Source: Marsupella aquatica (taxonomy: Eukaryota > Plantae > Marchantiophyta). From it: a stretch of DNA of 64,000 nucleotides. The stretch covers positions 22,580,558 through 22,644,557 of the forward strand of contig OZ316895.1 of assembly GCA_973895155.1 (NCBI GenBank). Reading direction: 5' to 3'. The position numbers were made by a program, and so were the translations under genes. The notes beneath the pieces are model-generated. The model did not search any database and was not told the DNA's origin. It worked only from the letters and a program-made list of their open reading frames with translations. Positions 23,820 through 58,300 of this stretch are shown here, piece after piece; the stretch's first letter is position 1; each line of letters starts with the position of its first letter.

Positions 23820-24008
23820 TTCCCTTCTCTTTCATCTGACTGGTTTGACTAGTGTCATTGTAGAGTTTTGGGAAATTTGATTTCTTCAAATCTGCATAGT
23901 GAGTAGGTCCCCAAACTAGGCAACACATTAAAAAAATGTCAGCCCAATTGGCTTGAGACTACAAAGTAATGGCTGAAAAACTATTTTAATACAAGTAAGG
24001 ATGGTGAC
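23820..24008 (+). repeat. Dispersed host repeat, copy 1, left part (continues at 30390-30445 beyond the copia insertion)
   Basis: Colinear similarity to 48019-48202 plus 55930-55990, with shared blocks TCTTTCATCTGAC..GTTTGAC, AGGTCCCCA..CTAGG, GGCTTG.GAC, ATGGCT.AAAAACT.TTTT, AGGATG, CCCCA.TAGCATAGAAAT and CATGAAAA. Confidence 0.85.
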
Positions 24009-24530
24009 TATTGGGAATAATCCTTATCCTGAGACACCATGCACATGTGAACACCATACAAAGTAGTCGACACAACAAGTACGTGGTTCACCTCACGTTT
24101 GAAGCTACGTCCACGGGAAAGCAAGAGACCTTTACTTCTCTCTTGCTCCACTCCAACAATGAGCTGAAGATCCACCAGGGACTGGCACCAGCCCTGGCTT
24201 TATACACAACAGTACTACCGCTAACTTTAGCTAAGTCCTAACCTGAGTTAGCCTAACTGTGGTTAGCTCAAGAGTCACAAGACTAAGAGCAATACCTAAC
24301 AAACTCCCCCTTGACTCTTGTCTTGGGGATTGGACTAATTGCTACCATATGGAATCCTCAGCGGGAAGTTCTAGACAATCACCTAAATAGGTCTCCCCCT
24401 AAAAACCACAAGGGTTAACTAAGGGTTAACTAGAACTAAGTCGTAGCTAAACTGGAATGAGTAATCCATATACAAATAGTCACAACCTTGCTAAGTAACT
24501 CTGCTTGTGCTACAACTGCAAAACCTGCAA

Positions 24531-24795
24531 CCCAGGGCCCTCACTTCTTTTCTTCCGACCCATCACACGCGAATAAGTATAGGATTTTTTTATTGGGTTT
24601 AGTGAAATACTTTTAAATTTTTGTTGAAGAACATTAGGGTTATTTTAATCCAATTTTGAGAATTATAAGAATCATAGGGTTTTTTTAGGGATAAAAAAAT
24701 TCCTAAAAAAAATTTATTGACTTAACTTTTAGGGTGTTTATTCCCCCAAAACTTTGAGCGTGATATGAGACACCCCTTGGATTGAGGCCCCCGAG
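24531..24795. mobile_element. 265-bp MITE nested in the RNase H C-terminus of copia element 1
   Basis: 8-bp TSD ACCTGCAA (24523-24530 and 24796-24803). Imperfect 13-bp TIRs CCCAGGGCCCTCA / TGAGGCCCCCGAG around an AT-rich interior homologous to 46551-46754. Removing it restores ..HRAILQVLQL. Confidence 0.88.
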
Positions 24796-24803
24796 ACCTG
24801 CAA

Positions 24804-27800
24804 AATAGCACGGTGTCTTGAGAAACTCTCCAAAGGAATCACTTTGGTAAAGGCATCAGCGGGATTGTGCTTTCCATCAATCTTGATTAGCTCAAAAGTT
24901 TTATCAGACACTACTTGCCTGATAAAATGGTACCTGATATCAATGTGCTTCACCCTGCTATCCAAGTGAAGAGCACTCTGACTATCACAGTTTAGAGTCA
25001 TCATGCCATGCTCTAAACCCATCTCCGTGATCAACCTGTCCAACCAAATTTCCTCCTTTGCCGCTTCTGCTGCTGCAACATACTCTACTTCTGTAGTAGA
25101 TTGAGAGATACACTTCTGTAAGGTAGATTTCCAAGTGATACATCCTCCTCCAAGAGTAAATACATACCCAGTTGTAGATCTCCTTGTATCCAGACAGACT
25201 CCATAGTCAGAATTTACATAGCCAACCAACGTTCTATCTTGATCTGGCATCAAATAGTAATCCATAGTCCTGTGTTCCCTTTAGATACTTGAGAATCCAT
25301 TTCACACCTTCCCAATGTACCTTCCCTGGATTTGACATGAATCTGCTAACCTTGCCCATTGCTAATGCCAAGTCAGGCCTAGTACATGTCATCAAATACA
25401 TCAAATTGCCTACTGCCTTCTCATAAGGAATCTTAGCCATCAGACCTTTCTCCACAGCATCCGTAGGAGAAAAAACCGATGATAACTTGAAATGTGAAGC
25501 TAAAGGAATACTCACTGGCTTACAATCCTCCATGTTGAATCGTGCAAGTACCTTCCTCGCATACTTGCCCTGATTCAAACACAACTGTCCAGTATCAGAG
25601 TTCCTAAAAATCTTCATTCCTAAAATCCTCTTAGCCTTACCAAGATCCTTCATCCTGAATTCAGATTTCAATTTTGCCTTGAGTCTGTCAACCTCAAATT
25701 GATCTTTAGCCACAATCAACATATCATCCACATAGAGAACCAGAATGATGAAACCAAACACATCATTCTTGCCTGATTTTGTATACACACAAGAATCATA
25801 CATCATCCTTGTAAAACCTTGAGCAAACATGAAATCATCAAACCGCTTGTTCCACTGTCTAGGAGTTTGCTTTAATCTATACAAGGACTTGAACAATCTA
25901 CAAAGTAACTAAGTTCTCTTGGCCCTTCTTCATAAAGCCTACTGGTTGTCTCATGAAGATAATCTCTTCCAAGTTGCCATAGAGAAAAGCAGTAACAATG
26001 TCCATCTGATTGATCTATCACCAGACCAAAAAACACAACAAGCACACACAAGATCCGAATTGTGGAATACTTAGCCACCAGTCAAAAGACCTCATTGTAA
26101 TCCACTTCTTTCTCTTGAGTGAATCCCTTAGCAACAAGCCTTGCCTTGTAGATCTTGTCTCCACCCTCTGAAGGACTGTCCTTCAACTTGTAAATCCACT
26201 TGTTGTCCACCACTTGCTGACCTCTTGGAAGCTCCACCGGTTCCCATGTCTTGTTGTCACTCAAAGATTGCAACTCCCTCTACATTATTGCATTCCACTC
26301 ATGCTTATGCTCTAAAGCACAAGCCTCACTATACAAAGAAGGCTCTCCTTCTTCCAAGATCAAAGCCATATCATCATCATCAGGTGCAATGTTAATATCA
26401 TCTAGTTTAGATGAGTCTGCCCATTGACCATACTTGGTAGGAGCTCTAGTAGAACGATTGGAAGTTCTTCTAGTAGATGATTCAGGCTGATCTGCTGTTG
26501 CTGTTGGCTAAATTTGAGGTACCCCAACAACAATTTTCTCCTCTTGTTCCATCACAGGAACCAGCTCCATCTCCAGAGCTTCTCTATCTCTCCTGTCATG
26601 AACATCATCATGACTAATCTCCCCCTCAACCCGGTCCGGGATGGGAGATTTCCCCTTGTCAATTTATGGGAATCTTGAGAATTCTTCCCCTCCTTTGATG
26701 ATTTGGATTCAATAAAATACACATCTCTACTGACAATTAACTTACAGGTTACTGGATCCCATAACCTATAACCCTTCACACCTTTCTGATAGCCAAGGAA
26801 AATGCACTACTTCGACTTGGACTCCAACTTGGATCAAAGTTGGGAAGGTGTAAGCACATAAGCATCACATCCAAAAATCCTCAGATGTGAGTAATCTGTT
26901 GGACGCCCGTACCTCATTTCAAATGACGTCTTGAATCCAATAGAACTTGATGGAGAGAAATTTACCAAATAAGCTGTAGTGTTGACAGCTTCTGCCCAAA
27001 ATTCATGTGATAAGCATGATTGGCTCAACATACTCCTTGAGCGTTCCAATAGTGTTTGGTTGAGCCTCTCAAAAACACCATTTTGCTGAGGAGTATAACT
27101 AATTGTGAGATGGCGTGTAATCCCCTGCTCCTTACAATTTACGTTTCAAATTCCCCGAAACCATATTCACCGCCGTTATCCGATCGAAGATCTATCTCAC
27201 CTTGTTACCAATCTGATTCTCAACTTGGGCTTTCCACTCCTTAAAAATGGCAAAAACATTAGACTTATTGTGGAGAAAGTAGATTGAGTAATCGTCTATG
27301 AACGTGACATAGTATAACCGTTCTGAGTGTGAGAGAGTAGGGGCTGGTCCCCACACATCACTATGTACATACTCAAGTACCTCCTTGCTGGTGTGAGTTC
27401 CAACTCCAAAAGGTTTCCTATGCTGAGCACTTCCCAAGCACACAATGCTCACATAAATCTAACTTACTAGAATGCAAATTAGAAATTGAACCTCTTTTCA
27501 GAAGTACAGCCAAACCTTTTTCACTCATGTGACCTAGCCAGAAGTGCCACAGCCGGGCCCTCTCTTCATGAGATAAGGTTACATTGGCTTCATGACATAC
27601 TACTCTGCCCTCTAAAATATATAGATTTTTGTGCCTCTTTCCCTTCAACACAATCTTAGTACCGGTTGAAACCTGAAGGACACCATTAGCAGAACTCCAT
27701 CGATGGCCATTTGCTTCTAACATTCCAAGTGAAATGAGATTTTTCATCATGCAAGGAATATGTCTCACATTCCGCACCATTCTTACAACACCATCAAACA

Positions 27801-27990
27801 TCTGTAATCTCACAGATCCAAGTCCAACTACTTGGCATGAAATTCCATTTTCCATCAACATTGAACCATTGGAAACCATGTAAGAACTGAAAAACTCTCT
27901 CCTACAGCAAATGTAAAAGGTACAAGCACTATCTAGTATCCAACCATCATCTCTCTGATGTGATACTACGTTGAGGGCAAAGTAATGGCA
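24804..27990 (-). pseudogene. pol: Disrupted pol of element 1 (protease, GAG-pre-integrase/integrase, RT, RNase H)
   Basis: Fragments WILDSACT, LWHFWLGHMSEKG, YVHSDVWGP, FWAEAVNTTAYLVN, YKARLVAKGFTQ, LYVDDML and VKHIDIRYHFIR, separated by stops and frameshifts. Confidence 0.93.
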
Positions 27991-29043
27991 TCACAAAATA
28001 TCATCATCGAGTAAATCTACCTCATGTGCGTTGGATGCTGCATTAGCTGATGGTGTAGAGTCCTTTACCCGACAATCTCTCTTCATGTGGCCTGGCTTGC
28101 CACATTTCCAACATGCAGGCTTTCTCTCTTGTAATTTTCCTCTAGATTTAGATCTTCCCCTTGACGTAGATCTAAATCTGTTCCACCCATTCGTGCGTTG
28201 CGTTGGTCTTCCACGATTCAAGTTCAATGCAGTACCAGAAGAAGATGCTCTCTGTGCTAGACCCAACTTTTTCTGAGCATCATCAGACAGTAGAGAGCTC
28301 ACCGCCTCATCATACAAAATGGACTTTAGATCTCTGTACAAGAGCATCTGTTTCAAGCCCTGATAAGATGGCGTTAAGGAGCTTAGCAAAAGCAAGGCCT
28401 TATCCTCATCTTTAACTCCCTTACCCAGGTTTGATAGATCCACCACCAGGCTATCAAACTCATTCAAGTGATCCTGTAGCTTGCTCCCTTCCTTGAGCCT
28501 AAGGCTCATCAAGAGAGACTTCTTGTACAGCCGGTCTGATGCATCTTCCCGGTAGTACTTCTCTCTGAGGGCCTTGAAGAGTGATGCGCAATCCTCATAA
28601 TCTGAATCCAGCTTCTTGATGACATGCGTCTTGAGGTAAAGCATCACCGCATTGACAACAATCACTTGCTCTTGTCTCCACTGCTTCATAGAAATCTCCT
28701 CCTCTCCATCATACTGCTCTCGCGTAGAGAGCAGATGATCTAAGCCCATTGCACAAAGAACACCCTTTACTTGCGTCTCCCATAGCAAGTAATCAGTACG
28801 GCCGTCGTACTTCTCCACCTCCAACTTTACTCCTCCAAATCTTGCCATCTCTCTCTTCTTCCCAACTACCAACAACTCTGGTAGTAGAACAGCTTCCTCC
28901 ACTGCACGTTGCACTGGTGATCGTACCGGTGATACTTATTCTTCCTCAAACGGTACCAGCTCCTCCTCAGACTCTCCGTCTGACTGTCGCGAACCTGAAG
29001 CTTCATCGACTCCAATTCTCCCAGTCTCCTCCGAGTCACTCAT
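27991..29043 (-). pseudogene. gag: gag of element 1 (UBN2-type Gag with CCHC knuckle); one stop in the N-terminal extension
   Basis: ORF 27991-28914 contains VEKYDGRTDYLLW, LQDHLNEFDSL and CWKCGKPGHMKRDC. An in-frame ATG at 29043 (MSDSEE..) is homologous to 51104 in element 2. Confidence 0.92.
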
Positions 29044-29076
29044 ATGAGAGAATCACCACGCAACCAAATTGCGAGA

Positions 29077-29258
29077 GGCCACAAGCCGTGGGCGGTGGGT
29101 GCCAACCCACACAACCAAGATGAATCGGTCACAGGCCGTGGGCTGTAGGTGCTAGCCAAGCTGCAAGGGGCCACAGGCCGTGGGCTGTGGGTGACTACCC
29201 ATACAAACCAAACTGTGAGAGGCCATAGGCCGTGGGCTGTGGGTGCCAACCCACCAAG
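29077..29258 (-). repeat. Four GC-rich ~42-52-bp tandem units in the 5' leader of element 1
   Basis: GGCCACAGGCCGTGGGCTGTGGGTG-like core at about 29077, 29127, 29169 and 29221. Confidence 0.88.
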
Positions 29259-32200
29259 ACTCTCTTCGCTCAAGTCATGCGCTAAACACGTTGCAATTGA
29301 CAGGAAAATCACTATTCACTATTTGTTGTTTCCTCTGTGTCCTAAGTCACAGCCGCCTCGCACTCCGCGGTGCCTTATCTCATCGCGCGCCGACAATATA
29401 ATTCACCAACAGTCAACGTTATTTCTAATGCCATCGTCGCTTTACACCATAAAATGACTAGTTGCCAACGGGAAATGTTGTCAAATTGCACAGACACAAT
29501 CTGCAAGCTCAACAAAGAAAAAACTTCCATCACGTCGCCTTCACTCCGCGTCAAGTGCCAATCCCAGACTCAAAATGACCGCCTCGCCGTGATCTCACCG
29601 TTGAGCCCTAGCACTTTGCATTTTCTTCTTCAAGTTGAGTGTCACAACAAGTAACCCGGTTCAGGGAAAAACAAGCACCATAGCTTGTCAAAAAACCAGA
29701 ACTCAATTTCTACTCGTTATGTCACACTCGCACTGCAAGCGCCAGCAAACCAGGTGCCGAATCGACCAGCTTGCTTCAACCTACAACTTGAGCTATAACA
29801 TGTGATGCCTCCCTCACCGCACAGCTCACACCGTTGCAAAAACGAACTCTGGTCTCTCCCACGAAAAACCGTCGAACACGAAACTCCACAAACAAACATT
29901 TTCTGCAATTACTCCTCACTCAAAAATCTGATCAATGATTTCTAACCGCCGCTAGAAAGCCTTCTCAACGATCTATCCGATGAGCCCACCACCATCAAGT
30001 TTCATGCGACGAAACTCCCAGGATCTTCAAGCCGTCAATTACACAAGAAATTCTTGTCACCACAGTGTCACCTCCCAGACATGCTCTGATACCACTTGTG
30101 GGGGATAATCCCTATCCCGAGACACCATGCACATGTGAACACCATACAAAGTAGTCGACACAACGAGTATGTGGTTCACCTCACGTCTGAGGCTACGTCC
30201 ACGGGAAAGCAAGAGACCTTTACTTCTCTCTTGCTCCACTCCAACAATGAGTTGAAGATCCACCAGGGACTTGCACCAGCCCTGGCTTTATACACAACAG
30301 CACTACCGCTAACTTTAGCTAAGTCCTAACCTGAGTTAGCCTAACTGTGGTTAGCGCAAGAGTCACAAGACTAAGAGCAATACATAACAGTGACCCCCCA
30401 ATAGCATAGAAATCAAACCATGAAAAATCAAAAGGAACACTTGATGACCTTAAAATTTTTGTCAGTTCCATCTGTACACACAATCCGAAACAGAACTTGG
30501 AAACCCAGCTTGGATGGACTGACAAAGCTCAGATTTCTGAGAACAACAAATTTGACTCAGATGGCACCCTTTATATTTTCTATTCAAAAGTAATTTGAGA
30601 ATTGCTTGATGTTTTCCTTATGTTTCAAATTACTTAACTCAGGGTTCTGTTGCATTGGCTGCCAGTGGTCTAACTAAGAGTCTCTGTGAGAACTAAAACT
30701 TTGAGAGTCATAGACCTGATACAATGTTGTCCTTGTTTTAGTTTCTGCCATTTGAGCATTCAATTTTACACATACATCCACGTCCACCTGACCTAAATGT
30801 TGAAGTTCGATCCTTATTGAAGCTCATGCCTCTCGGCTAAGGTCCTTCTTAAACCAAAGCACTTGATTAGTACAGATCCCCATGAGCTTGTTTGCTTCAG
30901 TTTAATCTTGCTGTGCTGATTTCTTCTGCTGGCCAGCTTCTCAGCTGCGTCCAATTGAATTCAAGTACAATAGATCAACAAGCTTAAAAATGTGATTGCA
31001 GCTTTTCAGAGAAACATTCACAAACTCCATGAGTAATTAGGGCTTTCTAATGCAACTTGATGATCGACTCAACATGGTGGTCACGTCGTCAACTGTTCTG
31101 GGCTTATTTTTGACATTTCCGAGTAACAGAAAACTAAGGCTGTCATGTACGTGAAAAGCCAAGGCCTTATATAAAAATTGTTTTAAAGTGTAATATTATG
31201 TTAGGGGGCACATTCTATGAGCCAGGACGAATTAGCTAGTAATAAACATATGAAAACATTACTAGTTTTGCATTCAAATGTTTTTTGAAATACTTGGTTG
31301 TTAAAGTCTCTGCCGGCCCTAAACCATGCGGTGAACATGACGGTCAAGTTGCTTGCCCCCACAGTTTGGGTAGACTATAGTTGCAGTACACAATGATGCC
31401 ATGAACTGGGTTCACGGTCCCAATAGTAGAGAATATAGGGAATACATGTACTTTCTGCCATAGTAGAGAATATAGGGAATACATGTACTTTCTGTATAAA
31501 CGTGCAAAAGAGGGTAGATTGGGTAAGATATAGATTTGGGGGTTGATTGTGGCAGAAAGAGTAAGAAGGGGGTTGATTAAGCATATACCTCAATCACATG
31601 TGATCCAAAATAGATATTTTTGAATAAAAAAAATTAGAAAGCATGAGATTGTTCTTCGAATATTTCTTTATAAAATAGACATATTTATATTAATCTAGGA
31701 TCACACGTGGTACCCCAAAACATACACTAATCTAATCCCCCGAGAAGCGCCCATCTGACATTACAAACAATAGACAATCTTGAGTACACAATTAATTATC
31801 TTCTTGCCCACAAACAGGGCACTTTATGTTTGTCACACAAAAGGATCTCGTTGCTGCAAGAAATATTTTGTTCTGTTTTACAATTCTGAAGTTCACTTGT
31901 CACTGGAGTACCCCTTAATCGCCATACAATTCAAACAAAATATTCCAAGAACTTGGAGCTAGGTTGCATGGATCAAAGAAGGAGTAGTGTGGTCAAGAGT
32001 AAGTCTGCTCCGGGGGCCTGCCACTCATTCAGCTGATGAGAAGGGGATTATTGGGTGCAATTGGGCATTGCCCACTGCTTGCTGCTCCTGGTTGCCAGCC
32101 ATTGACTGGGATTCGCATTGGTTGCTCTCAGATCCGTTTTTCACATATAAGTTAGCAACAGCATTTGGTACCATAGGGACTAACTTTGCTTTTTTTTACT

Positions 32201-32716
32201 CATAACGGTAAATGTTTTACTAATTTCTCTCATGCTACGATTACCCTCTTGTCCGTAGTCTGCATTCCTCATCCATATGCACTCCATGCTGCATGGAACC
32301 TTGCTCTTAGCTTCTAGAATAGAATACCATCAGGCACAGGACATGCACCATGCAATTGCATGGTTGAAACTTATGCTCTGCATGGAAAAACTCTGATTTC
32401 TCCCAAACTTGACATCCATCTCATGTACATTTTGGGTAATACTCCACACAATGCAACAAGATAACTAGAAAAAAATATTCAAAAATGAGAAGAAAAAATG
32501 TGTAGAATATACAAAGCTTTTTCTCTCAGTATTTGTGCTCTACTCAATGTCTCACTCCTTGTATCCACTCAAATAATCACAAACACATTTATGCAATGAT
32601 TTAAAATGTCACACACAATCCAATGATTGTTGAACAAGTGATTCTAGCAGAACAACAGATGAAGATGGAGAATCTCACTCCTGTAGCAACTGTGGGTCTA
32701 CAACAATACCCCATGA

Positions 32717-32983
32717 TGTTGAAGGATGAACAAGGGCAAAGGAGGAAGAATTTCAATTCAAGGAGTTTTTGACTCAACCTTGGCGAGGTTAACTAGAGTA
32801 AACATTAGTTAACTACACTCCTCATGAAAAGATAACCCTTTTGTATCTCATGAAGAGTGTACCTTAGCAATTGTAAAAATAGCCCGAATGGTTTGAATCA
32901 TGTATCTGTGTGTCAGTGTGCTCGTGTTAAATGTGTCAAATGCGTCATGTTATCCGTTTTGATCTTACAATTGGTATCAGAGC
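32717..32983 (+). mobile_element. Relic 5' LTR end plus tRNAiMet PBS of a third, truncated LTR retrotransposon
   Basis: ..CTTACA (ends 32969) + AT + TGGTATCAGAGC (32972-32983), the same LTR-end/PBS geometry as at 48545-48559. No gag or pol follows, and the left boundary is a guess. Confidence 0.6.
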
Positions 32984-33574
32984 TTTGGTTTCGAATTGAT
33001 TGATGTTTGCATGTCTTTTGTGACTGATTGACATATTTTTTGGAATGCAAGGGATGTGCTTATGATCTGAATAGTCTCACTTATGTGCACAACAGTCCTT
33101 TTTTTATCCCCTTTTTATTGGCAAAAGTTTGCCATATACTGCCTCAGGATTGAGGCCTGCAATCCCACAAAGAGAATTTTTAAAAAAATCTAAAAACATT
33201 GGCCTATTTTTAGGAGACAATATTTATACTAAGGACAATTCCTGAGAGTTGACAGTACTAAAGACTACTAGCTAGCCACTCCCTCCCAAGACTCTTACTG
33301 CCTGAATAACCTGTTTCTTTCAATTGCACCTCCCTAACACCTCCGACTCATGTACCTTTGTACTATGTACCTCCTGATTGGGATTGCTACTTGCATAACC
33401 TTCATTTTAATTTCAGTGAGCACTTTGGATGGGGTGCAATAGATTTTGGAAGGGTTGGAGGGGGAGAGGAAGGGTGGGGTTCTTGCCACCATGTGTCTTT
33501 GGAGACATGGATGGGTTGAATTATTTCCAAAGAAAAACCATACATTTGAACATTAGTGTACATGGCCCTATTTC

Positions 33575-33575
33575 T

Positions 33576-33605
<30 letters not shown>
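33575..33605. repeat. (TTC)n microsatellite
   Basis: Visible directly; explains the poly-L and poly-R stretches in the spurious ORFs here. Confidence 0.9.
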
Positions 33606-33607
<2 letters not shown>

Positions 33608-37651: not shown

Positions 37652-37654
<3 letters not shown>

Positions 37655-37683: not shown

Positions 37684-37686
<3 letters not shown>

Positions 37687-43853: not shown

Positions 43854-43885
43854 GCGATGTGGAGTAAGAGAATTGGAACTTCCAG
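43452..43885 (+). repeat. Coding minisatellite, ~57-60-nt unit encoding ERCGSK(K/R)xG(A/S)SGR(V/L)xD(A/S)(V/DW)L; about 7 coding units plus one in the 3' UTR
   Basis: GAGCGATGTGG recurs at about 43503, 43560, 43617, 43677, 43719 and 43779, and again across the stop at about 43852. Confidence 0.93.
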
Positions 43886-44945
43886 CTGCATAGCAGAAAT
43901 GGACATGCTCGAGAGATTTTAAGTCTCCACTGTCAGATTAGGAATTTAAGGCTATTCACACCATGTCAAATAGTCATAACAGAGACAACAATCATACAGC
44001 GACCGGCATATTTGAGGGAGTTGTCAATTTGGGATCTTTGTACCTTGTCTCCCACTCGATGGAATTTAAAAGGCACGACACTTAAATTTAGGAGCTAGGT
44101 TTCTTACGACATCATTCTCTACGCACAAAAATTGTTCATGACAGACGCCTCCCGATGTGTGGCAATTGTCCTACACGTTCAGGTCTGCACTCTGGCGGCT
44201 GTGAAAACAACGGAAGTGCTTAGATTGAGTAGTGATACACCTACATTTTTTCTGGGTTGATCTCTGGAACCCAACGAGATTTTTGTCATCGTCTTGCCCT
44301 CATATTAGACAGATGTGGTCCCTCTGAGAGCTCTGAGAGAGTAGAGTGGACCAATTGATTTGATTTAGACCCTCCAAGTTGAGGGCAAGTGGCCTAAAAT
44401 AGTACTGTGTTTTAGCCCAGCTTGTTGCCTGACGAAATCCAGTTTTGGTTATGCGAATGATCAACTTGTGTGATGTGTTTCCGTTTGGAGGTATTTGCTT
44501 TCAGTTGGCAACTCATAAAGCCTGGAGACTGCTCAGACTAACTTGCACTGCATTCATCATGCGTTCCTCTCCATTGTTTCTCAATATGTGTTCAGGATTT
44601 GAACTCTCAGGATTTGAACTGAGAGTCGGTGGTTGGCAAGGATCGCACACGAAATGAGTTCCCACTGACTCCCACTTGAATAACGAAATAGAAGTCAGAT
44701 GAATACGACTTGAGTTGGAATCTATGTAAGATGGCTTTTCAAAGAGTGTTAATCTACTTCTGCTCGTCAGTGTCATCTAGACGAAATTGGAATCCTTCAC
44801 ATGAATCGTTTTGGAGGGTGACTGACTCAAATTCATGTGCACGTTAATATAGTCCTTTGAGTAAGTCCTGAAATGTATGTCTTTTCACATGATGCTCCTC
44901 AAACTTGCTGACATTCCTCTGGAGATTCCTTATGTTCTGAGGTGA

Positions 44946-46075: not shown

Positions 46076-46076
<1 letters not shown>

Positions 46077-46120
<44 letters not shown>
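46077..46120. repeat. (CT)n microsatellite
   Basis: Visible directly. Confidence 0.92.
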
Positions 46121-46124
<4 letters not shown>

Positions 46125-46550: not shown

Positions 46551-46754
46551 CTCGGGGGTTTCATTTCCACAAAAATGACACATCACGTGCAACAAAGTAT
46601 AGGGTCATTTTATTGGTTCAAAGGGAAGACTTAAGAATTTTTCTGAGAAGAATAATAGGGTTTTTCTAAATCAAATTTTGAGACTTATAAGAACATTAGG
46701 GTCCTTATAACCAAATATATCACGGGGAGGCATCCATATAGTGAGACCCCCGAG
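46551..46754. mobile_element. 204-bp MITE, same family as 24531-24795
   Basis: Perfect 8-bp TSD GGACAATT (46543-46550 and 46755-46762). TIRs CTCGGGGGTTTCA / TGAGACCCCCGAG match at 12/13. Interior shares AAGTATAGG..TTTTATTGG, AATTTTGAGA.TTATAAGAA and TAGGGT blocks with the other copy. Confidence 0.92.
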
Positions 46755-48018
46755 GGACAATTGGTGGTGCAATGTCTTCTAGACAAGGTTTTCTATGTGT
46801 GCATGAATTGTGGATGGTTGGTCTGTGGTAGTGTCCAGGAGTGGTGGACTTAGCCACCAAGCACCCTCACCAAGCCCCGTACCTTTGCCTAAGTACTCCT
46901 GATGCTTGAAAGCCTCCACAAAACTCCTTGAGCAAGCACCATGACACCGCTATCATCGCCAATGGAAACTCCCATACAAAGCCGCACTTGCTCTTCAACA
47001 CGATTGTAGCTCAATGCCCCATATTGTTTGCACATGCAACAAACCAACAAGTAAGCAACCCACCTTGATCTTGGAACCCAAGCCTACTGTCGTGCCACAA
47101 GCTCGATAGTCGTTAGTAAGTTGGTTAGCGCATAGAGTCTCCCACGCCCGCATGACCTTGCCATAAGCTGAAGCTACGGTCGGCACCCACTTTTTGTCCA
47201 AAATGGTCCCTCTACCACGTGCCACCCAAGCTTCTACACTTTCTATCCAGCTCTGGCTAACCACCCTGCCTCCATGACATGCCCACGGCCCAATTAGCTG
47301 GCCCGACTCTAGCAATTGTCTCCACAAATCCAACTCCACTATGTCACACCATTCTAGGTAGTATTATAGCATATTGTACTATCTAGGCTTGTACATTTTG
47401 TATGTAGGTTATATGAGTCGATAGGTTATATGAGTCGATAGGGTTCAGTTGGGTTTGTGTGGAGAGTAATTCTCCCATTGTGAGGCATTGAAAGGTAATC
47501 GTTCTATGTTGAACCTTGGAGAGGGGAGCTCGAGTTGTGGCTATGGTGGTTGAGAGCTGCTTCTGTGTAACGTCAATTCCTTGAGTGCAAGGTGCATTGG
47601 GCTTGACATACATGTGTGATCGGATCAGACGGGATTGATTGTGTGTTGATTGGTACTGATTGCTGTCGGATTTCATGAAAGATTATTGTGGGTTTTAGAC
47701 ATGTGTGGGCCTGGGTGTTGAGGTCTAAGTGCATCCCCGTGATCCTAGTTACAAATTCTTTTAGACATCCTATGAAAATGGGGCAGGAAAGAAATTTGGA
47801 GTTGCAAGTTTCCGTTTAGTTGACCTTTGCCGGAGCTACTTTTGTGTGCAAAATCCCAGGTAAACTGAAAATGCTTATGTAAAAAGTGCACTTCTGGCCA
47901 TACTAAAGGGGAATTTGTATCCCAAATTTCTTCCCCCTCCCTAACCACCCTAGCCTTCCACACATTCTATTTATTTCTTTTGTCCTCAAATCCTTACTAG
48001 ATTTTTTTTCTTGTTTGT

Positions 48019-48202
48019 TTCCCTTCAATGTCTTTCATCTGACCAGTTTGACGAGGGTAATGAGAAAGGCTCGGGACATCTATTTCTTGAGTCAAATTTT
48101 TTGGTAAGCAGGTCCCCACGCTAGGTAGCAAAGTGAAAAATCACAACCCAAAAGGGCTTGGGACAAAAACATTATGGCTAAAAAAACTCTTTTGATGCTA
48201 CC
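48019..48202 (+). repeat. Dispersed host repeat, copy 2, left part (continues at 55930-55990)
   Basis: Colinear with 23820-24008 plus 30390-30445, roughly two-thirds identical by eye. Confidence 0.85.
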
Positions 48203-51103
48203 TGTTAGGTATTTACTCAAGGTCTAGGGTTACGGCATGTAACCGTAGTTAAACTAACTGTAGTCAGAGACGTGGTTAGGTTAACTAGGATGCACACTAT
48301 ATGCCAAGCGGTGTTTGCTTGGATAAGTGGAACTTAGGCTCATTGTTATGGAGCCACTTGAGAGATGAGGAGAGCTTACACTGTGGAGACTTGGTATGGT
48401 CGACGGGCTTAGAGTTCAGTAAAGCTCTCTTGTGTGTTCCCATGGACGTAGCCTCGAGGAGATGAACCACGTATCTCTTGTGTCGACTACTTGCGCGTTG
48501 GATGTGTCATGTGCTTACCATTACGAGTGTCGTCTATGCTCAACAATTGGTATCAGAGCATGCCTAGGAGGTGACATTGTTCGTGACGGGATTTTGTGAC
48601 GGTTTTTTCCAGCGTTGAGTGTCGGTGGATTTTCCAGAGCTCCGTCACATGGAACTTGGAGTTTATGGGCTCAGCGGATAGATCGGGGCAAGGGCTTTCG
48701 AACGGTGCAAAGAAATTGCTAAACGGAGATCGTGGTACGGAGAGATCTAAGTTTTCGTCATTCTGGAATTTGTGAAAAAAGTTGGCAACATTCGTGTTCG
48801 ACGGTTTTTTGGAGGAGGGACCAAATTTTGTTTTCCCGACGGTGTGAGCTCTACGGCGAAGGAGGCGTCGCATGCTGTAGCTCTGCTTGTAGATCGGGAC
48901 GAGCTGATTGTTTTGGTAGATGGTTTGTTGCCGAGTGTGTAACGAGTGCGTCGCATTGAGCAAAAGAAGCATTGTCGGTGGGTTTGTTGCCGAGTGTGTA
49001 ACGAGTGCGTCCAACCCACCGACATCGGTTTATGATTCCTCACCATAATCCGAACGTTACAAGGTGCAAGCTTTTTTTGTTTGATTTCCACAAGCATTTT
49101 TGGATTTCTTACGGGCTAATTTTTTGTTCGAAAAACTCTCTCTCTCTCTCTGTGGATACGTTGCGACAGTATATAAATAAATGAGTATAAGTTTGACTAG
49201 TGATATGGAATCCCTAGAAACTAAATGAGTATAAGTTTGACTAGTGATATGTAATCCCTAGAAACGCCATTGACGTCCTTTGACATGTGTAACACCCACC
49301 AATTATAATACATTACACATTACACATATAATACCTATGTATGGTCCAAAAACATTTTATTTATTTTTTCTCTCAACCACGTGGGAGGCATTAACACCTT
49401 ACGATCACCATCCTGAGATTAGGTAGCCCAACACTACTTAGCGCCAGCTCTACTGGCGGCGACCCTAACTTACCCCCTCCTCTATGGCCTGCCTTCCACC
49501 TAAAACCTCTGCCCCAACTCGAACAATCAGTCATGCACACATTTCAGCGCGCGCTCAACAGGTACCGCTCTTCTCATATTGATTCCTTTTTTGTTATATT
49601 TCATGAATAGCTTAGTCTAGCCCATAACTGATATATGTCTCCCCGTTACCGCCTGGGCATCTTGGTAACAGAAACATATAGCATGAATTTGTCAGTAAAT
49701 TGGCTTGATTCACCCCAGGGACGGGGGCTGAATGACGGACCTGGGGCTTGCAATGTAGTCAAGTCAACTACATGTCAGTTATGGTTTAAGGTCTACTTCT
49801 GTCTATAAGACTAACAGATTTGATGCACCGATGGTCCATGCATAGAGCTCTGCTTAGAGCTATATGCTAGTTCTAACAAGCTACATATATGTCGTATACT
49901 GACCATGCTAACTATTAATAATTTTTTGTTGTTCCTAACACTGCAGCAATTCGCCCCTATCTACACCACTAGTATCTCCAAGAAATTGTTTTTTGTTGAC
50001 TTGATAGAGTAATCCTTCTTTCTATACCCTTGGCATTGAGATCTATCTACCTATTACTCTATGAAAAGTTTTTTAAATCCTGGTTATTCTTGACACTTGT
50101 TACTTCTATCATTAGTTATTTCTATCCCCTATTTTACGCTGTACTTCCAATTGCAGCACCTGCCACTACGCTTTGATTAAGCTATATTGAGACCTGTCCT
50201 CTTAACGAATTGAGGGCTGTATGAGTAGTAACTTTTTTGATACCTATAATCTCCGTCAGAACTTTTCATTGTACTTCTGTGAACTTACTTTACCATTTGT
50301 CACCGGCAATATATGAAGTTTTCTGACTTGGACTATAAGGTGTAATGTTTATCTATCCAGGACTCCTCCCAGACCCTACTAGACCCGCCCTTTGCTCTCG
50401 CCCTCGCGGTTCCGGCGCCGAAAACCCCTAGCCCCAGTTTTTTCTTGTGTACGCGGCTGCGTACGCAGCCGCTTTGTTACCCTTCCTTCCCCGACTATAC
50501 TCCCGGTCCTGCCTTGCCGGTACGCGGCAGCATATTGCCGCCACCCGGTTTGCATACTCTGCCCGTGTACGCCCGATTTTAAAAAAAGGGGTTCCCAACC
50601 CCCTTTAGGCCCTTATTTTTAATTCTTTTACTCCCTTCTGATTGGTAGCCGCATCTCGGGACCTGCCGCCCTCCACTTTAACCGCTTGGACAGGGGGAAT
50701 GGCTCCCTGTGAGCCTGCTGCTTTGTGTGGGAATATTCCCCCAAAAAACAGAGAGTGTGTTTTTGGTCATCCATCGAAGATTCCATCCGCCAAACGGTAA
50801 CTTTTTTGGTTCGTCTTTGGCAAGATGCTAGCCATCGGAGTTGGCAAAGCGGTGCACAAATTGAATTGCATTTCCGATGTTGGGTACCAGTTCACATTTT
50901 GGTTATTCCCCGAGGTGGTCAAAACGGGGGAGAATTCCAAGTTTTACCCACCCCGACCAAAAAGTGAATAACTTTTACGTCGGAGTTCGGTTTTGATTCT
51001 GGTTTTCAGCATTGGAGAGCTAGGCTTGTGGGCTATGCGGCGGTGATAAGTTTTGAGTTTTTTTAAGAAGTTGAAAAAACATCATTTTTTCTTGCATTCT
51101 CAC

Positions 51104-52132
51104 ATGAGTGATTTGGAGGAGATTTTTGAAGAAGTGGATCTTGAAGCACGAGGATCACCACGACGATTTGAGGAGGAGAGATAGGAGTAGGAGGAAGCGC
51201 ACATGACACCGGTACAATCACCAGTGCAGCGAGTAGAGGGAATTGTGAAGGAAAAACAGATGGCATCCAGGTTCGGAGGTGTCAAGTTTGAGGTGGAAAA
51301 GTATGATGGGCGTACGGACTACTTGTTCTGGGAGAAGCAAGTGAAAGGAATTCTTTGCGCTATGGGCCTAGATCATCTTCTCTCTACACGAGAGATGTAC
51401 GATGATGAGGAGGAGATTCCACTAAAGAGGTGGAGGCAGGAACGAGTAATTGTAGTGAATGCGGTGATGCTTTATCTGAAGCCGCATATCATCAAGAAGT
51501 TGGATGACTATGTGGATTGTGCAACTCTATTCAAAGCCCTAAGGGAGAAATACTATCGAGAGGATGCATCAGATCGATTGTACAAGAAGTCTCTCTTAAT
51601 GAGCCTTCGGCTCAAAGAGGGGAACAAGCTCCAAGATCACTTGGATAAATTTGACAGCCTAGCTGTTGATTTGTCTAATCTCGGTAAGGGCGTTGAAGAA
51701 GAGGACAAGACCTTACTTCTTCTCAGCTCCTTACCCCCATCTTATCAGGGTTTGAAGCAGGTTCTCTTGTATAGAGACTTGAAGTCTATTTCATACGATG
51801 AGGTGGTAAGCTCTTTGCTGTCAGATGATGCACAAAAAAAGTTGGGTCAAGCCCAGACAGCATCGTCATCTGGTGCTGCCTTGAATGTGAATCGTGGGAG
51901 GTCACAACGGCATCCCAAGCAGCGCATGAATGGCAAGGGAAGAAGTAAATCTAGGACAAGATTTGCTTCAAGGGGGAAGTCCTAGGAGAGAAAGCCAATA
52001 GTCTGTTGGAGGTGTCACAAGGTTGGTCACGTTAAGAGGGATTGTAAGGGTAAGGCAGTTGAATCTTCATCAACCAATGTGGCTAGTGTTGATGGAGAAG
52101 TTGATTTACTCAATGATGAGTATGTTTTATGA
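51104..52132 (+). pseudogene. gag: gag of element 2, with premature stops
   Basis: MSDLEE.. at 51104 is in frame with ORF 51203-51985 (VEKYDGRTDYLFW, LQDHLDKFDSL). The frame continues past a TAG to CWRCHKVGHVKRDC and ends at TGA 52130-52132. Confidence 0.92.
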
Positions 52133-55100
52133 AGTCAGGAATATGCCCTGTGCACATCATCTAGGAGAGCAAATGATGTGTGGATTCTTGATTGTGCTTG
52201 CTCCTTTCACATTTGTTACATTCGCGAGTATTTCAATTCTTATTCTGTGTCAAACGGTTCAGTTTTGATAGGAAATGATCACTCTTGTCGAGTTGAGGGT
52301 ATTGGGTCTATAAAGATTCAAATATTTGATGGCATTGTGCGCACAGTGTTCGGAGTCAGGTTTGTACCTGGCATGCGTAAGAATTTGATTTCACTCGGTG
52401 TGTTGGATACAAATGATCATCAATGGCAAGTAATTGATGGTGAACTTCAAGTCATGTCGGGAGAGACAATGATTTTGAAGGGTAGAAGACAGAAGAATAT
52501 GTATGTTTTACAGGGCAATATAGTATGTGGAGAGGCCAATGTAACCAAGTCTCACGAGGAAATGACTCAATTGTGGCATTCACGGCTAGGCCACATGAGT
52601 GAGAAGGGTTTGGCTATCTTGCGGAAGAATGAGCTCATTTCTGATTTGCAGTCTTGTAAATTGGATTTCTATGAGCATTGCATTTTTTAAAAGCAGCATC
52701 ATCGTACTTTCGGTGTTGGAACTCATGGTTCCAAAGCGGTTCTTGAGTACATACATAGTGACGTGTGGGGACCATCCCCGACTTCCTCACATTCTGGAAA
52801 ATTGTACTATGTATCCTTCATTGACGATTACTCAAGATTTGTATGGATTTATTTCATGACGCATAGGTCTGATGTCTTGTCCATTTTTACAAAGTGGAAG
52901 ACCCAAGTGGAGAATCAGACAGGAAACATTGTTAAGTGTTTGGATACAAGGGTGAAGAGTCTAAGGTTAGACAACGACGGGGAGTACACTTCAATAGAAT
53001 TTGAAGAGTACTGTGCAGAACAGGGGATAACTCGCCATCTTACCACAGTTTATACTCCGCAGTAGAATGGTGTCGTTGAGAGGCTCAATTGAACACTATT
53101 GGAGCGGTCACGGAGTATGTTGAGCCAATCAGGTTTAACACGGGAATTTTGGCCAGAAGCTGTCAATACTGCAGCTTATTTGGTAAATCTTTCTCCTTCT
53201 AGTGCAATCAATTTCAAAATGCCGTTTGAAATGCGTTATAAGCGGCAAGCAGACTATCATGGCTTGGTAGTTTTTGGAAGTGATGCATATGCTCTCACAC
53301 CAAAGCAGAATAGGACCAAGTTGGATCCTACGTCCAAGAAATGTATTTTTCTTGGGTATCAGAGTGGTGTGAAGGCCTACAGGCTATGGGATCCTATTGC
53401 CTGTAAGCTCGTTGTCAGTAGGGATGTTTCCTTCAATGAATCCAGATTATTGAAGGAGGGGGAGAATACTCAGGTCTCCCGTACTGACAAAGGAAAATCT
53501 CCTATCCCGGATCTTGTTGAGGGGGAGATTGATCATGAGGTACATGATCGGAGAGAAGGAGGTGCTCCAAGCATGGAGCTGGTTCTTGTGCCAGAGGAAC
53601 AAGAGGAGTTTGTTGATGCTGGTGAGCAGCAAGTGGATGTTGCTGAGCTTCAAATTGTACCAGTAGATGCAATTCAACCGGAGTCATCGACTAGAAGAAC
53701 ATCTGGTCGCACTGTACGCGCTCCTCCTAGGTATGGACAGTGGGTTGATTCATCTCAATTGCAAGAGGATGATTTTGCAGCTGATGATGAGGGTGATGCG
53801 TTGGTTTTGGAAGAAGGGGAACCTTCTTCATTTCATGAGGGAAGTGCTTCTAAGGAGAAGCAGGAGTGGACTGCAGCAATGCAAACGGAGATGCAATCAC
53901 TGAAGGACAACAAAACTTGGGAGCTTGTTAAGTTGCCTAAGGGTCAGCAAGTGGTGGACAGTAAGTGGATTTACAAGCTGAAGGATAATTCCGCAGGAGG
54001 TGGATCGAAGGTCTACAAGGCTAGGTTGGTAGCAAAGGGATTCACAAAAGAGAAAGGTGTGGATTACAATGAGGTCTTCTCACCAGTTGCTAAGTACTCT
54101 ACAATATGGCTATTGTGTGTGCTTGTTGTAATGTTTGGTCTACTGCTAGATCAGATGGATGTTATCACAGCTTTCCTCTATGACACCTTGGAAGAGGTAA
54201 TCTTCATGAGACAGCCACTAGGTTTTGTGAAGAGAGGACAGAAGGAATTGGTTTGCAGATTGCTAAAATCCTTGTATGGGTTGAAGCAGTCACCAAGACA
54301 GTGGAACAAGCGGTTTGACGATTGGATTTGGTCACAAGGTTTTCACAAGAGTGTGTTTGACCCTTGTGTATATTTGAAACCGGTGAAGAATGTTGTCTTT
54401 GGGTTCATTGTTTTAGTACTTATGTGGATGACATGCTTATTGCGGCCAAAGATAGGTCTGAGATTGTTAAGCTTAGCACTGCTAAGTGCAGAGTTTAAGA
54501 TGAAGGACCTAGGGCCAGCTAAGAGGATTTTGGGTATGGAGATCACTAGGGACTTGGAGGCTGGTAAGCTATGGTTGACATAGAGCAATTATGCGAGGAA
54601 GGTAATTGCTAGGTTCAACATGGGGGATAGTAAGCCAGTAAGTACGTACCTCTTTGGCTACACACTTCAAATTGTCATCAGCTTTTTGTCTCACAGATGC
54701 GACAGAGAAGGGGCTGATGTCAAAGGTTCTTTATGATAAGGCAGTGGGAAGTCTCATGTATTTGATGACTTGCACTAGACCTGATCTTGCCATGGCTATG
54801 GGCAAGGTGAGCAGGTACATGTCAAATCCAAGGATGGTACACTGGGAAGCAGTGAAGTGGATTATCAGGTACTTGAAGGGTACCGTGGATCATGGTCTTT
54901 TATTTGATGCAAATGCAAAGAATGCGAGATCATTGATTGGATATGTAGATTCTGACTATGGACAAGATCTAGACCGAAGGAGATGAACAACAGGGTACGT
55001 GTTCACACTTGGCGGTGGATGCATAAGTTGGAGGTCTACTTTGCAGAAGTATATTACTCAGTCCACTACAGAAGCGGAGTATGTTGCAGCAGCGGAAGCA

Positions 55101-55394
55101 ACGAAGGAAGCGATTTGGTTGGATAGACTTATCACTGAAATGAGATTGCCACAGGGGAATGTGAAGCTCCATTGTGATAGTCAAAGTGCGCTCCACCTTG
55201 CTGTGAACCAGGTGATGGACAGTAGAGTGAAGCACATAGACGGCAGGTACCATTTTATCAGGCAGGCTGTGTCTGATAATTTGTTTGAGCTAGTCAAGAT
55301 AGACGGTAAACTCAACCTAGCTGACGCATTTACCAAAGTGATTCCTTCGGAAAGTTTCTCTAGACATCGTGATGTGCAATTGCGTCACAAGTAA
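52133..55394 (+). pseudogene. pol: Disrupted pol of element 2 (protease, integrase, RT, RNase H)
   Basis: WILDCACSFH, LWHSRLGHMSEKG, SFIDDYSR, FWPEAVNTAAYLVN, YKARLVAKGF, SLYGLKQSPRQW, STTEAEYVAA and CDSQSALHLA, with several stops and frameshifts. Confidence 0.94.
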
Positions 55395-58300
55395 GGGTTT
55401 TTCTTAACATTCGTTGTAATTACTGATATATGCTCTTCTTCACTCCTAGTAATAGGCTACAACTTAGTTCTGGTTTGCTCTAGTTAGAGAGGGGAAACCA
55501 TGTTGGTTTTCGTCCAGAACTTCCCGCTGAGGAATCATATAGGTTAGCAGTATTACCCTCCCCTAGACCAGAGTCAAGGGGGAGATTGTTAGGTATTTAC
55601 TCAAGGTCTAGGGTTACGACATGTAACCATAGTTAGACTAACCATAGTCAGAGACGTGGTTAGGCTAACTAGGATGCACACTATATGCCAAGCGGTGTTT
55701 GCTTGGATAAGTGGAACTTAGGCTCATTGTTATGGAGCCACTTGAGAGATGAGGAGAGCTTACACTGTGGAGACTTGGTATGGCCGACGGGCTTAGAGTT
55801 CAGTAAAGCTCTCTTGTGTGTTCCTGTGGACGTAGCCTCGAGGAGGTGAACCACGTATCTCTTGTGTCGACTACTTGCGCGTTGGATGTGTCATGTGCTT
55901 ACCGTTACGAGTGTCGTCTATGCTCAACACTTCCTAGGATGCTCACATACCCCAGTAGCATAGAAATAACATCATGAAAACCCAAAATAAACAATAAACC
56001 AAGTTAAAGTAATGTTGGTTTAAAGAAAACACTCTAACCGTTAGTTATCAAGATTTGATCTCCTTTGTCGATCTAAGCAATTTGACAACATGCATAATTA
56101 TTGAATTTTTTGTGACCATTGTGCATTGTCGTCCACCCTCCTCTTTATTAGCTAGTGTTTGACTGTATGTGTCAATCACTCAGATCTAACAGCTAGAGTC
56201 AGTCATTGTTTTGTTTTTTAAAGTAAATGAATAAAATATCAAGAAATGATTTAACTATTGCAATTGAAAAAGTAGATAGAACTGTTACAAGAGGTTATAT
56301 TTCCCCCCACTCTTTGATATTTGCTATGCTAATTTCACATTTTCAAGGTTTTGCCATTCTTTGGTCAAACTATTTTTGCTGGCATTGCAACAAACATGAA
56401 TGGTGGTGTTTGTTTGTCTTTGCAAACATTGTTGTTTGTGTTTGTGGCACAAACCATTGATGTAGCACAACCATAGGCCAAGAATTTTGGAATGGACTTG
56501 TCATGGGGGTATGTAAATATCTGAATGACTATGGTAGCTCTGCATTGTCCCTGCTAGGCATGGTGACAATGTTGCAGCCATTGTATCCTTGTGTCATCCC
56601 TCCCTCAAATGACCCACAGTCAGTCTAGCCATAGGCTTTGATCAAAGGATTGATTAGTGCCTTATTATACACATATTGTGTGCAACAACATTAGGTAAAA
56701 AATAAATAAAATCCTGGAAATACACAAGGGTTTGACAATGTGCTCAGATGGACCAGCAAAACCCTGACAAACTGAAACCGTTAGGTTATACTTCCAGAAC
56801 AATAATGTTTATAGTTATTTCAGAGTACTTTTTTGTATTTTATTACACTATGGTTTGAGTGTCCTTTTTGAATGTCCATAAGCCACTTTTGTGTCTATGA
56901 AATCTCTTTTCCCAACAAAACAGCTAAAATAACTCACAGAAAGCAAAAAGAAATCAAGACACAACCAAGAAAATTGATTATTGTCAGGACTCACTCCCAT
57001 AAAGACCATGTTGTATAGTGATGAATATGAAACAACAGTACATACAACAATCTGAAATAATTCATTCACAGTACATAACAACCAGGCCCGTGACCAAAGA
57101 GAGTTTGGTCACAAGAGACTGAATTTAAAAGAGCAAATATTAAATTTAGTTCACTTATTGAAAGAGTGTTTTATTGGTAATGGATAGAATTAAAATCAAT
57201 TGAAAACATTGTTATAAGTGCTTAATCCCATCCTTCTCCCAGGAAAAAATAATAATCCCCATCCTTCTCCCAAGGAAAAGTAAGAAGAAAAATAAAGACA
57301 TCAACTAAAAAACAAAGAAAATAAAATTAAAAATTAAATAAAAACAAAAGACAAATGGAGTAAATGTTTCTTTCATGTCTTTCCTATTCCTAAGTAAGTC
57401 ATTATGGTCTTGTCTCAATAATAGTTTATATAAAATACATGCATCATTGCATCATAGGTTTGTTTACTCTTTAGAACAAGTGAAGTATTATTGCAATCCA
57501 TCGTACTGCAGTCCATTGTATTAAAAAATAAAAAATTGTATTGCAGTCCACATGTAATGCAAACAAAAGTATCTTGGGGATTTTTTTGGTACTCCATCAC
57601 ATAGCTGAACATAGTTCAGCCAAAAATAAATTCAAGCAGCAACCCAGAAAAAAACATTTGAGAAATTAGGCTCTCTTGTAAAACTCTTTTGTTCTTTGAC
57701 ATACTGTATATTTGAAAATGGATTCTTTAAAGACACTCCCTCTTACACTCCCATGACAGCAAAAGCTAGTTGAACCCCAATTTACATAGTTCTATAGAAA
57801 TTGTCCATTATTGCCTATTAAGGTAGACCATTCCTTGACCTATGTGCCTTGTCCCCTGATTAAGTTGGTGAATTTGTCATCCATGTAGTGTGAGTGCTCC
57901 TGTCTGAGACACAGTATGATGGGACTGTACTTGCACCTGCCTTTAAGGTAATGCATTCACTTATTATGGTCCTCTCTTACTCCTCACCACATGTAGGTTT
58001 TGATGTCTCATTGCAAGTCATTGTCTCTATACAATGTTGAACCTGGCAAACACAACATAGATGTCAGCAGGTCAAATCATAATTTAAAGAAGAACTTGAT
58101 AGTATAATCAAACCCATACTATACCCTTTATGTATATTGGGTCCCGAGATGGACCTTTACTGTGTCTAAGGTAGACCATATGCACATAATGTCCCATCAC
58201 GGGACCATTGGTATTCGTTAAAGGAATGGTTGCCACAAACAGGCCAAACATGATATGGCACAAACAAGAAACAGGAAACTAAAGTCCGACACACAATCTG

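What the first reader, a model, noticed from the sequence alone, without database searches (positions are those of the whole stretch)
23820..55990. Two independent copia retrotransposons landed ~12 bp apart in homologous copies of the same host sequence: candidate targeted-integration system
Seen: removing each element and one TSD gives empty sites that align without gaps across the insertion points. Site 1 is TTTTAATACAAGTAAGGATG[GTGAC]CCCCAATAGCATAGAAAT and site 2 is TTTTGATG[CTACC]TAGGATGCTCACATACCCCAGTAGCATAGAAAT, with ~190 bp of colinear similarity upstream (23820-24008 vs 48019-48202) and ~55 bp downstream. The TSDs are offset by 12 nt. A duplication of one insertion cannot explain this: orientation relative to the host is opposite, LTR lengths differ (293 vs 343 bp), TSDs differ, and the host copies are far more diverged (~two-thirds identical) than either LTR pair (3-5%). 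Established: integrase-tethered targeting is known for yeast Ty1/Ty5 and for centromere-targeting plant copia elements, but I know of no such narrow site preference for Tnt1/Tork-like elements. Inference: this family recognises the repeat, a protein bound to it, or its chromatin.
Basis: partly seen in the sequence, partly recalled or inferred. Interest (0 to 1): 0.85.

Follow-up and report, generated by a model that had tools for sequence, protein, structure and literature searches.

The report
Two jumping genes, near-identical landing spots
Two related jumping genes in a liverwort sit 12 bases apart in two copies of the same old repeat, but the other copies of that repeat that could be read are empty there and the family appears far more abundant than the repeat, so this is likely a coincidence or at most a weak hotspot, not a targeting system.

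Summary
Two decayed Tnt1-like copia elements (24009-30389, minus; 48203-55929, plus) of a leafy liverwort interrupt two 71%-identical copies of a ~245-bp sequence, with target duplications 12 bp apart. They are independent insertions. Family-wide targeting is not supported. Public contigs show the host is an old dispersed repeat. Six other copies with readable letters are empty at site 2 (one probably an allele or homoeologue), and four are clearly empty at site 1. LTR depth exceeds host depth at least 20-fold in all 4 runs. Flanks at other LTR 3' ends (20-41 contigs per run) agree only 0.41-0.46, close to unrelated flanks and below the 0.61 modelled for one fixed site; none joins the host. 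Chance per window is ~8e-6, giving 0.08-0.4 expected cases over 10,000-50,000 element pairs (pair counts assumed). A partial hotspot is not excluded (~22%): the sample of empty copies is small, both cuts follow GATG, the integrase tail is longer than in all 104 relatives measured, and an unexplained G-run borders other LTR 5' ends. No assembly was available for the decisive flank census.

The parts
23811..24008 (+). Host repeat copy 1, left part; ends with GATG and the TSD GTGAC (24004-24008)
   Evidence: multi-copy by depth and shared variant letters
24009..24301 (-). Element 1, 3' LTR (293 bp; terminal dinucleotide mutated)
24523..24803 (.). About 265-bp insertion near the end of element 1's pol region, flanked by an 8-bp duplication; likely a hAT-type MITE, related pieces at 20410-20538 and 46577-46709
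   Evidence: the hAT label rests on recalled knowledge that 8-bp TSDs are typical of hAT
24809..28935 (-). Element 1 gag-pol in copia order (gag, zinc knuckle, Pol beta-barrel, GAG-pre-integrase, RT); broken by stops and frameshifts
30097..30389 (-). Element 1, 5' LTR, with the primer-binding site next to it at about 30083-30094
   Evidence: that this PBS matches initiator Met tRNA is recalled, not tested
30390..30454 (+). TSD GTGAC (30390-30394) and host repeat copy 1, right part
   Evidence: (D13)
48010..48202 (+). Host repeat copy 2, left part; ends with GATG and the TSD CTACC (48198-48202)
   Evidence: other genomic copies
48203..48545 (+). Element 2, 5' LTR (343 bp), followed by the primer-binding site
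51191..55394 (+). Element 2 gag-pol in copia order (gag, Pol beta-barrel, GAG-pre-integrase, integrase core, SH3, 142-aa linker, RT); broken into several frames
55587..55929 (+). Element 2, 3' LTR, preceded by a polypurine tract
55930..56008 (+). TSD CTTCC (55930-55934) and host repeat copy 2, right part; a 14-bp near-palindrome starts one base before the TSD position in the empty site

Best explanation
Two Tnt1-like copia retrotransposons of one abundant liverwort family inserted independently, 12 bp apart, into two old copies of a dispersed repeat, and the near-coincidence is likely chance helped by weak local bias rather than a targeting system. Shown: independence, 5-bp target duplications, a multi-copy host, empty host copies elsewhere, and much higher LTR than host depth. 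Established for the class: integrase makes a 5-bp staggered cut. Inferred: site choice is largely unspecific, insertions survive where the DNA is dispensable (both lie between genes, in old repeat DNA), and a scan over very many windows picks out such a rare coincidence.
For: laid 5, 5, 8 and 10 contigs (X7-X10) on 48090-48222. Of the 10 'behind' rows shown, 8 continue into the empty-site motif TAGGATG, 2 (one copy seen in two runs) go into other sequence, and none starts an LTR. That is 6 distinct other copies empty at site 2 and 4 clearly empty at site 1; in each run the lowest LTR bin is at least 20 times the highest host bin (X7 4,773 vs 232; X8 9,292 vs 464; X9 260,353 vs 1,462; X10 61,400 vs 761), and the best LTR bin in X7 is about 3,600 times single-copy depth. 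Flanks at the LTR 3' end (35, 20, 41, 39 contigs) agree 0.41, 0.46, 0.42, 0.41. Modelled values are 0.38-0.42 for unrelated flanks, 0.48-0.49 for half at one host site and 0.61-0.63 for all. No joint to the host is listed (tables 5 and 5c). Chance model: 7.8e-6 per window with two elements, 0.08-0.39 expected over 1e4-5e4 pairs. No RNA gene or coding remnant marks the host.
Against: The per-window chance is very small, and the number of element pairs scanned is my assumption. The empty sample is small: one of the six copies is probably an allele or homoeologue, three are read from pooled rows, and 14 of 37 loose-end rows were not shown. The 95% upper bound on occupancy is 0.39 for six copies, and by the same formula 0.45 for five and 0.63 for three. 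Flank agreement cannot separate unrelated flanks from insertions spread over +-6 or +-12 bp of the host, and the observed values are at or slightly above the unrelated range (X8 0.46 vs 0.39-0.44; X9 0.42 vs 0.37-0.40; X10 0.41 vs 0.37-0.40). Host copy number is loosely bounded (about 20-600 if copies are 70% alike), and the tool warns that depth is no copy number. Both TSDs follow GATG. A G-run at other LTR 5' ends is not chance under my model.
Confidence: 0.62

Rival explanations
1. Partial hotspot: a minority of insertions is steered to this part of the repeat, likely by the integrase C-terminal tail binding a protein or nucleosome positioned on the repeat's short palindrome, while most insertions go elsewhere.
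For: 2 of 2 host copies in the window are hit within 12 bp by two subfamilies about 72% identical internally. Both cuts lie directly after GATG, and a near-palindrome lies between them. The linker between integrase SH3 and RT is 142 aa against 70-139 (median 106) in the 104 relatives where it could be measured (of 120 listed), and the aligned block that holds it is 61% identical between the two elements. In Arabidopsis ALE4 elements the integrase C-terminal region decides target choice (PMC11735389, passages).
Against: 0 of 6 other copies carry an LTR at site 2. The one copy that breaks off 12-16 bp before the site goes into sequence with no significant match to the window's LTRs (279-1833 of 2000 shuffles scored as well). 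The relatives used for linker length are distant (37-50% identity), so a longer linker may only mark the lineage. No GATG or CATC outside the TSD position in the loose-end rows.
Confidence: 0.22
2. The family has a short, general sequence or structure preference (GATG half-site, palindrome, G/C run next to the TSD) that makes these two positions better-than-average targets, without any recognition of the repeat as such.
For: GATG precedes both TSDs, though it occurs only 588 times on both strands of 64 kb. A G-run follows the TSD position in 2 of 4 runs at the LTR 5' end (at most 1 of 20,000 simulations per setting), and element 1 has a C-run there. A weak palindrome preference is reported for plant LTR elements overall (PMC6911290, section 8).
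Against: The same table shows no such preference for Tork (5.6 native vs 5.8 shuffled). GATG is not in the flank rows. The G-run is missing in X9 and on the other LTR end. By my rough estimate such a bias would raise the odds of the coincidence only a few-fold.
Confidence: 0.09
3. Strict targeting: most members of this family insert at this site of the repeat.
For: The coincidence itself; diverged host copies are easily missed at 80% likeness (detection 2-19% if copies are 70% alike).
Against: LTR depth is at least 20 times host depth in 4 of 4 runs, with no fixed-site flank signal; most visible host copies are empty. With 1,800 elements, at most 0.4-13% could sit in host copies at 39% occupancy; only the extreme case of 600 host copies and 200 elements allows it.
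Confidence: 0.04
4. One ancestral insertion was duplicated or rearranged, or the structure is an assembly error.
For: Both copies lie within 24 kb in the same orientation of the host.
Against: Opposite element orientation, different and offset TSDs, LTRs of 293 vs 343 bp that align poorly with each other while each pair is 95-97% identical; junctions spanned by contigs; a close empty version of site 2 exists in X9 and X10.
Confidence: 0.03

Closest known systems
Tnt1/Tork-like Ty1/copia LTR retrotransposons
   Same: Domain order gag, Pol beta-barrel, integrase, RT; 5-bp TSD; best relatives 37-50% identical, several named 'Pol polyprotein from transposon TNT 1-94'.
   Different: Liverwort host; integrase-RT linker longer than in all 104 relatives measured. 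The lineage was not placed on a reference tree.
Tal1/ALE4 centromere-targeting copia of Arabidopsis (PMC11735389, passages)
   Same: Copia element; precedent that the integrase C-terminal region sets target choice in a repeat-rich chromatin domain.
   Different: Tal1 targets CENH3 chromatin over whole satellite arrays; here the host is a dispersed, non-tandem repeat between ordinary genes, and no targeting is shown.
Yeast Ty1/Ty3 (Pol III genes) and Ty5 (silent chromatin) targeting (PMC5911963 seen in a search listing only; mechanism recalled)
   Same: Would give clustered insertions, in either orientation, near a protein-bound site.
   Different: No tRNA or Rfam family in the window; most family insertions appear to lie elsewhere.
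Non-random nesting and regional hotspots of plant LTR elements (PMC6911290, abstract and section 8; 10.1101/2025.07.14.664700, passages)
   Same: Insertion into older repeats, weak local sequence bias, recurrent hits in some regions.
   Different: Those hotspots are defined in 10-kb bins or as element regions, not as a 12-bp offset in a named repeat.

Membership tests
Ty1/copia LTR retrotransposon | Integrase upstream of RT, with copia-type gag and RVT_2 | tested here: met
   (both elements)
Ty1/copia LTR retrotransposon | Paired LTRs, PBS, polypurine tract, 5-bp TSD | tested here: met
   one TSD has a mismatch and one LTR end is mutated
Tork (Tnt1) lineage | Groups with Tork references in an RT/integrase tree | not tested
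   Only similarity to proteins named after Tnt1; no lineage-labelled reference set was held
Site-targeted LTR retrotransposon (Ty1/Ty3/Ty5/Tal1 type) | Most insertions lie in or next to one target class | tested here: not met
   indirect (contig depth and loose ends), not a full census
Site-targeted LTR retrotransposon (Ty1/Ty3/Ty5/Tal1 type) | Insertions enriched at the target over chance, even as a minority | tested here: inconclusive
   2 of 2 copies in the window (the ascertained ones), 0 of 6 elsewhere at site 2
Site-targeted LTR retrotransposon (Ty1/Ty3/Ty5/Tal1 type) | Integrase C-terminal determinant that binds a host factor | not testable with these tools
   Longer, conserved linker but no further Pfam domain
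Pol III gene or RNA gene target | tRNA or other structured RNA gene at the site | tested here: not met
   0 Rfam matches at gathering score and 0 tRNAs in the window as it stands, with the host copies interrupted

The most novel reading that the evidence does not exclude
A liverwort copia family with an extended integrase tail has a base-pair-scale hotspot at a short palindrome inside a dispersed repeat, used by two subfamilies in both orientations: a sequence-narrow target of a kind my six searches did not list for plant copia elements.
Probability: 0.22. Interest if true: 0.7.

Novelty: new member of a known kind. Interest (0 to 1): 0.3.

Why it matters
If the hotspot is real, it would be a plant copia element with near base-pair target choice in a dispersed repeat, giving a simple system to map how an integrase tail reads its target. 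If not, it is a useful caution: a 1-in-100,000 coincidence per window can be expected in a scan of this size, and only a genome-wide flank census can tell the two apart.

Tried and rejected
No whole genome is held, so the flank census was not possible. No third host copy and no further LTR of the family in the window. LTR motif scans of metagenome and prokaryote contigs and a host motif scan of metagenome contigs found 0 matches. Earlier findings: nothing in 3 look-ups. Rfam and ARAGORN: 0. Pfam on 108 short frames of 72-119 aa around the elements found only gene exons, no transposase or other clue to the host. Idea that the copy breaking off at 48186 joins an LTR fragment: suggestive by eye, not significant, left open. 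Idea that the G-run at LTR 5' ends is the host's C-run read backwards: it would need many occupied host copies, while those seen are empty and their C-run is shorter. A recalled precedent of elements targeting MULEs was not found in PMC545598 (0 hits for three terms) and is not used. The language-model atlas gave no result for the linker.

Full report
Setting. The window comes from a leafy liverwort or a close relative: the NPH3 exon at 3053-4411 is 94% identical to a Calypogeia fissa protein, then 85% to Riccia and 83% to Marchantia. It is a gene-bearing region: NPH3, pyruvate kinase (exon 14889-15140), an ankyrin-RING gene (38.4-43.9 kb) and Mo25 (62.2 kb). Both elements appear to lie between these genes.

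Observation. Element 1 spans 24009-30389 on the minus strand (LTRs 293 bp, 279 of 293 identical, TSD GTGAC twice). Element 2 spans 48203-55929 on the plus strand (LTRs 343 bp, 332 of 343 identical, TSD CTACC/CTTCC). Their interiors are 72% identical over 4.2 kb, both have copia domain order, and both are broken by stops or frameshifts. With the elements removed in memory, the two sites align over 255 columns (180 identities, 60 mismatches, 15 gap positions; score 126 against shuffle maxima of 29-38), and the similarity does not extend further. The TSDs are 12 nt apart. Opposite orientation, different TSDs and different LTRs rule out duplication of a single insertion.

What the host is. There is no third copy in the window, no RNA family or tRNA and no coding remnant. 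Four runs hold 41-51% of the sampled words of 22000-31999 (two studies, possibly including this DNA's source). On copy 1, depth over the host is about 3-19 times that of the neighbouring single-copy bins. At 23818, 23850, 23892, 23915 and 23928 other contigs carry the letter that copy 2 has (compared with the alignment). On copy 2, 5, 5, 8 and 10 contigs were laid, and their loose ends continue as colinear, diverged versions of the host on both sides. So the host is an old dispersed repeat. Its copy number is only loosely bounded: about 20-600 if copies are 70% alike, fewer if they are closer (the tool's seed length is unknown). Its class is unknown.

Test 1: are other host copies occupied? 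One search showed 23 of 37 loose-end rows. Of the 10 rows that run on behind the match, 8 continue into TAGGATG and the rest of the empty site, 2 are one copy that breaks off at 48186 into other sequence, and none begins an LTR. By the pieces table this is 6 distinct copies empty at site 2. Four of them are clearly empty at site 1's position too, one is unclear and one shows a single letter past it. One of the six (X9, X10) matches the whole stretch closely and 26 of 27 letters of the right flank, so it is likely an allele or homoeologue without element 2; this confirms the empty-site reconstruction but is not an independent family member. At least two more copies were laid without their onward letters being shown on their own. 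The copy that breaks off looked by eye like an LTR interior, but it scored no better than shuffles against the window's LTRs. The 95% upper bound on occupancy is 0.39 for six, and 0.45 for five or 0.63 for three by the same formula, so a hotspot with modest occupancy survives.

Test 2: do other family members share this flank? LTR depth is at least 20 times host depth in each of 4 runs and reaches about 3,600 times single-copy depth in X7. The tool warns that depth is no copy number, and the older host is more easily missed at 80% likeness. Flanks at the LTR 3' end (35, 20, 41, 39 contigs) have agreement 0.41, 0.46, 0.42, 0.41 and show no host motif. My model gives 0.38-0.42 for unrelated flanks, 0.48-0.49 for half at one host site and 0.61-0.63 for all at one site, but 0.40-0.43 for all spread over +-6 to +-12 bp. 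A single fixed site for most members is therefore excluded; a spread is not excluded by this measure alone, and the observed values lie at or slightly above the unrelated range. No LTR-to-host joint is listed (tables 5 and 5c); only 24 of 568 loose-end rows and 12 of 34 indel rows were shown.

Test 3: chance. 773 of the 49,892 bases outside the elements have a dispersed homologue in the window. The chance that one element lands in such DNA and the other within +-12 bp of the homologous place is 7.8e-6 per window with two elements, or 0.08-0.39 expected over 10,000-50,000 pairs. The pair count, genome size (300-700 Mb) and element number are my assumptions. The event is very rare per window but not out of reach for a large scan.

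Hints that remain. (a) Both TSDs directly follow GATG, and a 14-bp near-palindrome covers site 2's TSD and runs up to site 1; GATG does not appear at that place in the flank rows. (b) The stretch between integrase SH3 and RT is 142 aa in element 2 against 70-139 in 104 relatives (measured in 104 of the 120 listed), and the aligned block that holds it is 61% identical between the elements, with no extra Pfam domain; the relatives are distant. (c) At the LTR 5' end the majority letters show a run of 9 G (X7, 16 contigs) and 7 G (X10, 18 contigs) just outside the TSD position, not seen in X9 (28 contigs) or X8 (5 contigs). Unrelated flanks gave such a run in 0, 0, 0 and 1 of 20,000 simulations, assuming independent, unweighted contigs. 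It fits head-to-tail LTR junctions or a neighbouring polypurine tract at least as well as the host; I could not resolve it.

Mechanism. Shown: two independent integrations with 5-bp duplications into two copies of an old repeat. Established for the class: integrase makes a 5-bp staggered cut (also stated in PMC11735389, passages). Inferred, about 62%: site choice is largely unspecific, retention favours dispensable intergenic DNA, and the scan selected the coincidence. Rivals: a partial hotspot through the integrase tail (22%), a short general sequence bias (9%), strict targeting (4%), rearrangement or error (3%).

Literature. PMC6911290 (abstract, section 8): nesting is non-random, the palindrome preference is weak overall and absent in Tork. 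PMC12477314 (passages, section 12): review of integrase-guided targeting. PMC11735389 (passages): the integrase C-terminal region sets centromere versus arm targeting. 10.1101/2025.07.14.664700 (passages): copia hotspots in 10-kb bins; its supplements could not be seen and may hold finer positions. PMC545598 (term search only, no hits). Six searches (listings and abstract starts only) showed no report of a plant copia element with base-pair-scale preference for a dispersed repeat; the library lacks most subscription papers. Ty1/Ty3/Ty5 mechanisms are recalled.

Verdict. A real and striking coincidence between two ordinary copia elements. Family-wide targeting is disfavoured by the first outside evidence; a minority hotspot stays open and is cheap to test on the assembly. 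Interest 0.3.

Noticed in passing
window 24285-24301 (LTR 5' end), loose ends in runs X7 and X10: A run of 7-9 G just outside the TSD position in the majority letters of other insertions' flanks; in X10 it continues in register with the LTR's other end for a 4-nt spacer, as in head-to-tail or two-LTR-circle junctions. Absent in X8 and X9; unexplained.
   Followed up: partly
window 24523-24803; related pieces 20410-20538 and 46577-46709: About 265-bp element with an 8-bp duplication and imperfect inverted ends inserted in element 1; three related pieces in 64 kb, likely an abundant MITE family.
   Followed up: partly
window 23572-23910 and 48090-48199, runs X9 and X10: A second, roughly 5-8% diverged version of both regions beside or instead of the window's own, absent from X7 and X8: an allele, homoeologue or mixed sample. 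The second version lacks element 2.
   Followed up: partly
run X7 record 10 and X8 record 16 on 48136-48186: A host copy that breaks off 12-16 bp before site 2; the X8 contig ends exactly 30 letters later, which suggests entry into repeated DNA. No significant match to the window's LTRs.
   Followed up: partly
window 23040-23560: Degenerate tandem array with a 35-36 bp unit about 250 bp left of host copy 1.
   Followed up: no
window 43448-43917: 57-60 bp tandem repeats inside the open frame that carries the RING domain of the ankyrin-RING gene (43089-43853).
   Followed up: no
window about 47342-47752: About 410 bp that by eye begins TGT and ends ACA, possibly a solo LTR of another family; no TSD seen.
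   Followed up: no
window 48965-51098: Element 2's leader is about 1.4 kb longer than element 1's and holds a 44-bp tandem pair (49175-49262); no Pfam match in its longer frames.
   Followed up: partly
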